Below, piece after piece: positions 5,161 through 5,181 of a stretch of 15,907 bases of DNA. Every line of letters begins with the position of its first letter. Position 1 is the first letter of the stretch. The position numbers and the translations under genes were made by a program. The DNA is from Escherichia coli (GTDB taxonomy: Bacteria; Pseudomonadota; Gammaproteobacteria; Enterobacterales; Enterobacteriaceae): the NCBI RefSeq assembly GCF_003334335.1, contig NZ_QOWQ01000058.1. The stretch is one strand, 5' to 3'. The notes below the pieces were generated by a model, which searched no databases, had not been told where the DNA came from, and worked only from the letters and a program-made list of their open reading frames with translations.

Positions 5161-5181
5161 AAAAAACCCGCACGCGGCGGG
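5161..5181 (-). terminator. Intrinsic-terminator-like hairpin plus U-run about 20 nt upstream of the major tail protein start
   Basis: Minus strand reads CCCGC-CGCGT-GCGGG followed by TTTTTTATT: 5-bp GC stem, 5-nt loop, T-run. Confidence 0.3.

What the first reader, a model, noticed from the sequence alone, without database searches (positions are those of the whole stretch)
5161..5181. Second terminator-like hairpin just upstream of the major tail protein gene
A GC stem-loop followed by TTTTTTATT (minus strand) lies 20 nt upstream of the SD of the most abundantly needed tail protein. This is an odd place for a terminator, so it may instead be a processing or stability element, or a stop for non-antiterminated transcription.
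Basis: seen in the sequence. Interest (0 to 1): 0.3.

Follow-up and report, generated by a model that had tools for sequence, protein, structure and literature searches.

The report
Conserved terminator hairpin before tail-tube gene
The hairpin is real and is this prophage's copy of a terminator-like stem-loop that sits just upstream of the major tail gene in all HK97-type phage tail modules and is already annotated in phage HK97, so it is an ordinary feature whose role has never been tested.

Summary
On the minus strand, CCCGC-CGCGT-GCGGG (5181..5167) is followed directly by TTTTTTATT. It lies in the 66-nt gap between the tail-terminator gene (5211..5555) and the major tail gene (ATG 5144, SD 5154..5149).

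Taken alone the hairpin is weak (-7.5 kcal/mol), and such patterns occur at chance frequency in the window. Comparison with relatives settles it. Of 94 distinct upstream regions from 247 related loci (E. coli, Klebsiella, the Pm34 lineage, Burkholderia; major tail protein identity down to about 36%), 93 carry a hairpin plus T-run at this junction. The rate is 1% in coding controls and 10% in shuffles. Stems differ between lineages, with compensatory changes in 5 of 6 pairs.

HK97 and HK106 records already annotate a (putative) rho-independent terminator at the same junction, so the place is not odd.

The same kind of hairpin fills the other large late-operon gaps in the window, before the capsid gene and before the tape-measure gene.

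Most likely it is an intrinsic terminator that stops RNA polymerase not modified by the late antiterminator Q and is read through late in infection. A role at the RNA level in tail-gene expression is not excluded. This is a known kind of feature and of low interest.

The parts
5167..5181 (-). Stem-loop CCCGC-CGCGT-GCGGG: five G-C pairs and a 5-nt loop
   Evidence: Sequence; scan; -7.5 kcal/mol; second-best hit of covariance model R1 in the window, 17.5 bits; stem invariant in all but one of the 20 E. coli-type variants
5158..5166 (-). T-tract TTTTTTATT directly after the stem. It would be the U-tract of the terminator and also the U-rich leader just 5' of the SD
   Evidence: Sequence. A T-run directly abuts the stem in the relatives, though the scan and alignment A5 were themselves keyed on a T-run
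5149..5154 (-). Shine-Dalgarno AGGAGG of the major tail gene
   Evidence: Sequence. An SD-like motif sits about 6-10 nt after the T-run in relatives
4428..5144 (-). Major tail subunit gene (238 aa), a homologue of HK97 gp12
   Evidence: ORF list; tblastn 68% to HK106 and 98% to Stx phages; annotations
5211..5555 (-). Upstream gene: tail terminator / tail completion protein, a homologue of HK97 gp11
   Evidence: 49% identity to HK97 gp11, E 3e-39; RefSeq name 'tail completion protein gp17'
5197..5224 (-). Second, weaker terminator-like hairpin AGGTCAC-GGT-GTGACTT. It overlaps the upstream stop codon (TGA 5213..5211) and runs into TTTTTCTTTTTTT, placing it in tandem with the main hairpin
   Evidence: Scan; -5.8 kcal/mol; R1 hit of 11.2 bits. 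A G-C to A-T compensatory change is seen in the L007/L038 lineage, and the hairpin is lost in the L005/L006 lineage

Best explanation
The site is a genuine, conserved intrinsic (Rho-independent) terminator-type element. It is this prophage's counterpart of the putative terminator annotated between the tail-terminator gene (gp11) and the major tail gene (gp12) of phage HK97.

Shown: its anatomy, its position, and its conservation with compensatory changes.

Inferred mechanism: in RNA made on the minus strand, the G-C hairpin forms right behind the U-tract and releases ordinary RNA polymerase. That polymerase would come from basal, spurious or moron-driven transcription in the lysogen, or from early infection. 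The element therefore acts as one of several fail-safe stops that keep the tail genes silent.

Late in infection, polymerase modified by the antiterminator Q at the late promoter reads through it, and through the similar hairpins before the capsid and tape-measure genes, to transcribe the tail genes.

This copy is weak to moderate (5 bp, -7.5 kcal/mol, U6) and is backed by a second weak hairpin at the upstream stop codon. In read-through mRNA the hairpin persists about 22 nt upstream of the start codon, next to a U-rich leader and a strong SD. There it may also isolate or stabilise the tail-gene ribosome-binding site. That last step is speculative.
For: Anatomy: a G-C stem directly followed by T6ATT, on the strand of the genes, 29 nt after the stop codon and so likely clear of a terminating ribosome (inference).

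Prior annotation: the same junction is annotated as a terminator in HK97 (6692..6719) and HK106 (6645..6670), and the flanking genes are homologous.

Conservation: 93 of 94 distinct junctions from 247 loci carry a hairpin plus T-run, against 1.1% of coding and 9.9% of shuffled controls. There are 51 distinct hairpins. Stems differ by lineage: CCCGC/GCGGG, GCTGC/GCAGC, CCACC/GGTGG, CCGTC/GACGG, GGCCCGC/GCGGGCC. Loops are often TTCG.

Covariation: RNAalifold predicts the hairpin, and 5 of its 6 pairs show compensatory changes. Paired cells are 95.9%, against 84% when shuffled and 40-47% when slid.

T-run contact: in every detected hairpin the T-run abuts the stem, though the detection required this. 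That contact is needed for termination but not for a plain RNA stabiliser (established knowledge of intrinsic termination).

Operon-wide pattern: a covariance model built from relatives gives its top four window hits on the coding strand, in or at the edge of intergenic gaps. It recovers 4 of HK97's annotated late-operon terminators.

Antitermination: a phage 98.7% identical here encodes antiterminator Q upstream of stx, lysis, terminase, head and tail genes on one strand.

Literature: the phage L genome paper states the same hypothesis for intra-operon terminators and says their roles are not known (PMC8022706).
Against: No transcript 3' ends, termination assays or Q read-through data were available for this site.

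The window's copy is short and weak and is not significant on its own.

A terminator in front of the most abundant tail protein is counter-intuitive.

Similar hairpins sit in front of the capsid gene in the window, and in Burkholderia phage vB_RY3. That pattern could instead point to a role in expressing the downstream gene.

The 247 loci are not independent. They represent roughly 8-10 lineages. My scan and alignment were anchored on the T-run.

Q itself is not in the window.
Confidence: 0.55

Rival explanations
1. The hairpin is an RNA-level expression element for the major tail gene. It would work in the read-through late mRNA rather than at the level of transcription. It could protect the 5' end of the tail cistron after endonuclease cleavage in the U/A-rich spacer. 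It could stop the ribosome-binding site from pairing with upstream RNA. The U-tract could act as a U-rich translational enhancer. Any of these would give the high output needed for the tail tube protein.
For: The hairpin always sits at a fixed short distance (19-28 nt) from the start codon, directly 5' of the SD.

The upstream genes overlap and are probably translationally coupled, whereas this gene starts after a gap with a strong SD.

The same kind of hairpin precedes the capsid gene in the window and in vB_RY3.

U-rich leaders are known enhancers, for example at atpE (my own knowledge, not tested here).
Against: Direct stem-to-T-run contact in all lineages is the hallmark of termination and is not needed for a stabiliser.

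The same hairpin type also precedes low-copy genes: the tape-measure gene in the window, and genes I and J in HK97.

The fixed spacing may be just the minimum room needed for a U-tract plus an SD.

Hairpins downstream of the tail gene, which a stable cassette would need, are rare (5 of 70).

The stem is far too short for an RNase III site.
Confidence: 0.25
2. The hairpin is a partial attenuator. Even Q-modified polymerase terminates here at a low rate, so the element lowers transcript levels of the tail genes relative to the head and neck genes and helps set stoichiometry.
For: The phage L paper lists partial termination as one possible role of intra-operon terminators (PMC8022706).

Several such sites occur in series along the operon.

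The element is also kept in distant relatives (vB_RY3, Pm34) for which I found no evidence either way of a Q-type antiterminator.
Against: It would lower mRNA for the most abundant tail protein just where most is needed. No coverage data were available. The effect would have to be offset by translation.
Confidence: 0.12
3. The hairpin is a chance match, or a decaying relic of an old inserted gene (moron) or module joint, with no present function.
For: It is not significant on a single sequence. This copy is weaker than HK97's (-7.5 against -16.1 kcal/mol).
Against: It is present at 93 of 94 distinct junctions with compensatory changes. Both flanking genes are orthologous across the family, so this is not a mosaic joint. 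The stem is nearly invariant among E. coli copies while the spacer upstream of it varies.
Confidence: 0.03
4. The hairpin is the 3' end of a small regulatory RNA. The U-rich spacer plus the terminator would form an Hfq-binding module, in the manner of prophage sRNAs such as HnrS or StxS.
For: A U-rich stretch, hairpins and a poly-U tail occur together. Prophages of this type do encode Hfq-bound sRNAs.
Against: HnrS has a different sequence and is not in the window. No orphan Hfq peak in the Sakai list lies at the expected junction positions (positions estimated, not mapped). There is no promoter-like site upstream and no Rfam match.
Confidence: 0.03

Closest known systems
Putative terminator between genes 11 and 12 of phage HK97 (NC_002167, 6692..6719), and the 'rho-independent terminator' at 6645..6670 of HK106
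   Same: The junction is the same, between homologous genes: the major tail protein is 68% identical to that of HK106, and the tail-terminator protein is 49% identical to HK97 gp11. The order is the same: stop, about 20 nt, G-C stem, T-run, SD, start. The stem core is related (CCCGC...GCGGG).
   Different: HK97 has an 8-9 bp stem with a 4-nt loop (-16.1 kcal/mol). The window has 5 bp and a 5-nt loop (-7.5 kcal/mol), plus a second weak hairpin at the stop codon. Neither has been tested experimentally, as far as I could find.
Intra-operon terminators of lambdoid late operons (for example phage L / P22, PMC8022706)
   Same: They are predicted intrinsic terminators inside an operon that has a single Q-dependent promoter. 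The proposed roles are the same: partial termination, or stopping polymerase that was not antiterminated.
   Different: In phage L the site is at the end of the procapsid module. Here it is at the neck/tail boundary. Here I also show family-wide conservation with covariation.
Phage lambda U|V junction
   Same: It is the same functional gene order: tail terminator, then major tail protein.
   Different: Lambda has only a 7-nt gap and no hairpin. The element therefore belongs to the HK97-type tail module, not to lambdoid phages in general.
tR' terminator and StxS / 6S RNA of lambdoid late promoters
   Same: It is an intrinsic terminator overridden by Q-modified polymerase (PMC7547250).
   Different: tR' lies just after the late promoter and acts as the regulatory switch. 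The present site is about 18 kb downstream, and no RNA product is known from it.

Membership tests
Intrinsic (Rho-independent) terminator | G+C-rich stem-loop (stem of about 4-12 bp, loop of 3-8 nt) | tested here: met
   5 G-C pairs, 5-nt loop, -7.5 kcal/mol. This is at the weak end of the range.
Intrinsic (Rho-independent) terminator | U-tract beginning within 0-2 nt of the 3' end of the stem | tested here: met
   T6ATT starts right after the stem. The same holds in the relatives, though the scan and alignment were keyed on the T-run.
Intrinsic (Rho-independent) terminator | Oriented with transcription and lying outside translated sequence | tested here: met
   It is on the minus strand like all late genes, 29 nt after the TGA and 22 nt before the ATG.
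Intrinsic (Rho-independent) terminator | RNA 3' ends or polymerase release at the U-tract | not testable with these tools
   Term-seq data exist for strain Sakai (PMC7547250), but no processed table is held.
HK97-type gp11|gp12 junction terminator | Located between orthologues of the tail-terminator and major tail genes | tested here: met
HK97-type gp11|gp12 junction terminator | Hairpin kept across the family through compensatory changes | tested here: met
   93 of 94 junctions. 5 of 6 pairs show changes on both sides, and 95.9% of cells are paired, against 84% shuffled and 40-47% slid. Caveat: the alignment was anchored on the T-run.
Q-antiterminated late-operon site | Lies downstream of a Q-dependent late promoter and is read through by Q-modified polymerase | tested here: inconclusive
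   Q is outside the window. A 98.7%-identical phage has Q upstream on the same strand. Read-through itself was not testable.
Described RNA families (Rfam 15) | Match at the gathering threshold | tested here: not met
   No match anywhere in the window.
HnrS (EcOnc10-12) prophage sRNA | Sequence identity to the 66-nt HnrS | tested here: not met
   0 matches with up to 3 mismatches. HnrS lies upstream of the packaging genes.
RNase III processing site | About two turns (roughly 20 bp) of double-stranded RNA | tested here: not met
   The stem is only 5 bp. The length requirement is from my own knowledge.

The most novel reading that the evidence does not exclude
The hairpins are not generic operon punctuation. 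They are specifically selected guards in front of the genes for the two self-assembling, most abundant virion proteins, capsid and tail tube. They would prevent leaky synthesis in the lysogen, for example to avoid triggering host defences that sense these proteins. At the same time, the U-tract would double as the translational enhancer of the gene it guards once Q-modified polymerase reads through.
Probability: 0.12. Interest if true: 0.5.

Novelty: already known. Interest (0 to 1): 0.2.

Why it matters
By itself it matters little. It is the local copy of a feature annotated in HK97 in 2000 and seen in many lambdoid late operons.

The useful by-product is the comparative result. This particular junction keeps a terminator-shaped hairpin in essentially every member of a widespread tail-module family, and the module is present in 1279 of 5426 complete E. 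coli genomes. The stems change in sequence but remain paired.

That makes the junction a clean test case for an admitted gap in the field. Authors state that the roles of terminators inside Q-dependent late operons 'are not known' (PMC8022706).

Tried and rejected
1. HnrS lead. A 2025 preprint describes a 66-nt multicopy prophage sRNA in the late region, and the spacer here is also 66 nt and multicopy. I took the HnrS sequence from its supplementary primer table. It has no match in the window, and it lies upstream of the packaging genes. Rejected.

2. Orphan Hfq-bound sRNAs of strain Sakai (Tree et al. 2014, Table S2). None lies at the positions where I estimate this junction to be in Sp9, Sp10, Sp12 or Sp15. 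The positions were estimated from distances, not mapped, so this is weak negative evidence.

3. Rfam: no family matched.

4. 'Stable cassette' idea, with hairpins on both sides of the tail gene. A terminator-like hairpin after the gene occurs in only 5 of 70 distinct downstream regions, and there is none in the window. Rejected as a general design.

5. The longer alternative fold AAAACCC/GGGUUUU that RNAfold prefers. The 5' partner is altered or shortened in close variants while the 5-bp core stays intact. I treat the core hairpin as the conserved structure.

6. Juhala et al. 2000 (the HK97/HK022 genome paper) is not held. Term-seq tables for Sakai are not held.

7. Literature searches for direct tests of terminators upstream of major tail genes found nothing specific.

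8. The vB_RY3 annotation gave no information on whether that phage has an antiterminator.

Full report
**What is there.**

Read on the minus strand, the 66-nt gap between the stop codon of ORF 5211..5555 (TGA at 5213..5211) and the ATG of ORF 4428..5144 (5144..5142) is:

CTTTTTCTTTTTTTCTACAAAACCCATAC-CCCGC-CGCGT-GCGGG-TTTTTTATTATC-AGGAGG-CAGA-ATG.

- The stem-loop occupies 5181..5167, the T6 occupies 5166..5161, and the SD occupies 5154..5149.
- The consensus scan lists the site: 5 pairs, all G-C, a loop of 5, and the tail TTTTTTATTA.
Only '20 nt upstream of the SD' is loose: the T6 ends 6 nt before the SD.

**Context.**

The window is the late region of a lambdoid prophage, with all late genes on the minus strand. 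The order is terminase small and large subunits, a 645-aa capsid gene, portal, neck genes, tail terminator, major tail, G/T chaperones, tape measure.

- The 1.2 kb around the site is 98-99% identical to Stx1a-, Stx2a- and Stx2c-converting phages.
- The 201 nt around the site occur in 1279 of 5426 complete E. coli genomes, with up to 8 copies per genome.
- The downstream protein is the major tail subunit. It is 68% identical to that of HK106.
- The upstream protein is 49% identical to HK97 gp11, the tail terminator (E 3e-39).
- A phage 98.7% identical here (Lys8385Vzw) encodes antiterminator Q upstream of stx, lysis, terminase, head and tail genes on one strand.

**Is it more than chance?**

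On this sequence alone, no.

- The hairpin folds at -7.5 kcal/mol (z -2.2; 7 of 200 shuffles fold as well). With flanks it is -8.5 kcal/mol (z -1.35).
- The 101-nt region has z -1.8.
- The consensus scan finds 15 terminator-like sites against 14.1 expected.
- My looser scan finds 14 on each strand.

Position does matter. Three of the 14 minus-strand hits lie in the 257 nt of sense-strand intergenic gaps, where about 0.23 would be expected by length.

**Relatives.**

The RefSeq record of HK97 annotates a 'terminator, putative' at 6692..6719, between gp11 and gp12. HK106 annotates a 'rho-independent terminator' at 6645..6670 in the same place. The HK97 sequence is AACCCGCC-AGAT-GGCGGGTT followed by TTCTTTTTCC and the SD.

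I collected 247 loci that encode relatives of the major tail protein. They came from annotated phage records, E. coli genomes and viral contigs. They include Klebsiella prophages, the Pm34 lineage and Burkholderia phages, with protein identity down to about 36%.

- Of 94 distinct 70-nt upstream regions, 93 carry a hairpin of -6.9 kcal/mol or better directly followed by a T-run. The rate is 1.1% for equal-length coding segments and 9.9% for dinucleotide shuffles.
- The one exception has a G-to-T change in the stem.
- There are 51 distinct hairpins. Stems differ by lineage: CCCGC/GCGGG, GCTGC/GCAGC, CCACC/GGTGG, CCGTC/GACGG, GCCGCC/GGCGGC, GGCCCGC/GCGGGCC. Loops vary freely and are often TTCG.
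- On an alignment of 65 sequences cut by position relative to the T-run, RNAalifold predicts the hairpin, and 5 of its 6 pairs show compensatory changes.
- In that alignment 95.9% of cells are paired, against 84% after shuffling and 40-47% when partners are slid. 53 cells have changes on both sides, against 8 after shuffling.

Among E. coli copies, the stem is nearly invariant while the spacer 5' of it varies in length and sequence.

The geometry is kept across the family. The order is stop codon, about 18-27 nt, stem, T-run, SD, start. The stem ends 19-28 nt before the start (my script mis-called some start codons, and I corrected those by eye).

Caveats:
- The loci represent perhaps 8-10 independent lineages.
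- Both the scan and the alignment were keyed on the T-run.

**The site is one of a set.**

I built a small covariance model from 11 relatives' hairpins and searched the window with it. All four best hits are on the minus strand, in or at the edge of intergenic gaps:

| Window position | Location | Score (bits) |
|---|---|---|
| 11454..11423 | between the terminase large-subunit gene and the capsid gene | 28.1 |
| 5187..5156 | the finding | 17.5 |
| 3735..3714 | before the tape-measure gene | 15.2 |
| 5228..5198 | a weak hairpin over the upstream stop codon | 11.2 |

Every late-operon gap of 45 nt or more holds such a hairpin; the next largest gap, 9430..9473 (44 nt), holds none.

- The same model recovers four of HK97's annotated late-operon terminators.
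- In Burkholderia phage vB_RY3 it finds sites just upstream of the major capsid and major tail genes.
- Phage lambda has only a 7-nt U|V gap and no hairpin. The element therefore belongs to the HK97-type tail module.

**What it most likely does.**

The anatomy is that of an intrinsic terminator. The strongest pointer is that the T-run abuts the stem in every lineage. Termination requires that contact; a plain RNA stabiliser does not (established knowledge).

In a Q-dependent late operon, such sites are expected to stop unmodified polymerase and to be read through by Q-modified polymerase. The phage L genome paper offers this reading, and partial termination as an alternative, while stating that the roles of intra-operon terminators 'are not known' (PMC8022706).

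I therefore favour a fail-safe stop for non-antiterminated transcription (confidence 0.55). This is an inference, not a demonstration.

The main rival is an RNA-level role in expressing the tail gene (0.25).
- For it: the fixed position at the 5' edge of the ribosome-binding site, the U-rich leader, and the parallel hairpin before the capsid gene.
- Against it: identical hairpins precede low-copy genes, and hairpins after the tail gene are rare (5 of 70).

Partial attenuation (0.12), chance or relic (0.03) and an sRNA 3' end (0.03) are less likely.

**Leads that failed.**

- HnrS is a 66-nt multicopy prophage sRNA (bioRxiv 10.1101/2025.11.27.690950). It looked promising but has a different sequence, lies elsewhere, and is absent from the window.
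- No orphan Hfq peak of strain Sakai lies at the estimated junction positions.
- Rfam has no match.
- Juhala et al. 2000 and the Sakai Term-seq tables were not available.

**Verdict.**

The 'odd place' premise is wrong. The element is the orthologue of an already annotated putative terminator, and its function is untested. Novelty: already known. Interest: 0.2.

Noticed in passing
window 11423..11454 (minus strand): This is the strongest terminator-like hairpin in the window: GAACUGC-UCCG-GCGGUUU followed by U-rich sequence (-8.7 kcal/mol, z -3.4). It lies in the 63-nt gap between the terminase large-subunit gene and the 645-aa capsid gene. HK97 annotates a putative terminator before its protease/capsid gene pair, and vB_RY3 has a similar site just before its capsid gene.
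   Followed up: partly
window 3714..3735 (minus strand): A terminator-like hairpin, GAACCGC-UGAG-GCGGUUU followed by U's (-10.8 kcal/mol, z -3.7), lies in the 47-nt gap before the tape-measure gene (start 3695). HK97 annotates a terminator at the same relative position (8398..8422).
   Followed up: partly
window 5197..5250 (minus strand): The 3' end of the tail-terminator gene folds into a hairpin that ends at the stop codon and runs into UUUUUCUUUUUUU. The short form is 5224..5208; a longer form starting near 5248 folds at about -12 to -13 kcal/mol. One lineage (L007/L038) shows a compensatory G-C to A-U change in which the non-coding arm follows a Val-to-Ile codon change. Another lineage (L005/L006) has lost the hairpin.
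   Followed up: partly
window 5132..5152 (minus strand): RNAfold predicts a small hairpin, GGCAGA-AUG-UCUGCU, that places the start codon of the major tail gene in its loop and pairs the last bases of the SD. HK97 has different bases here, so it does not look conserved.
   Followed up: no
window 239..258 (minus strand): A perfect 8-bp hairpin, GGCATGGT-GGTT-ACCGTGCC followed by TTTTTG (-11.8 kcal/mol), lies inside the coding sequence of the minor tail gene 119..460. It may be chance or an internal terminator.
   Followed up: no
window 13770..13910 (minus strand): Several copies of a GTTAAC-centred motif (ATGTTAACTGGC, AATGTTAACCAGG, CAGTTAACATTTG) lie just upstream of the terminase small-subunit gene and next to an HNH endonuclease gene (13987..14352). 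The region looks like a cos / terminase-binding region.
   Followed up: no
window 14726..15112 (minus strand): A small lipoprotein-like gene (113 aa, MKMKRNLPLIILLSSLVMGC..., annotated 'protein TonB' in a relative) is preceded by a promoter-like site with an extended -10 (15112..15085). It is a candidate moron that could send unmodified polymerase into the late genes in a lysogen.
   Followed up: no
window 9474..11411 (minus strand): The capsid gene is 645 aa, much longer than HK97's gp5. That would fit a fused protease/scaffold-capsid protein. The head module therefore differs from HK97's, although the neck and tail modules are HK97-like.
   Followed up: no
L090..L169 (Klebsiella prophage loci), about 25-45 nt upstream of the hairpin: The spacer between the upstream stop codon and the hairpin contains a CCAAT unit repeated a variable number of times (two to at least four copies). 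The length change is tolerated 5' of the hairpin. The only change seen 3' of the stem is in the length of the T-run itself.
   Followed up: no
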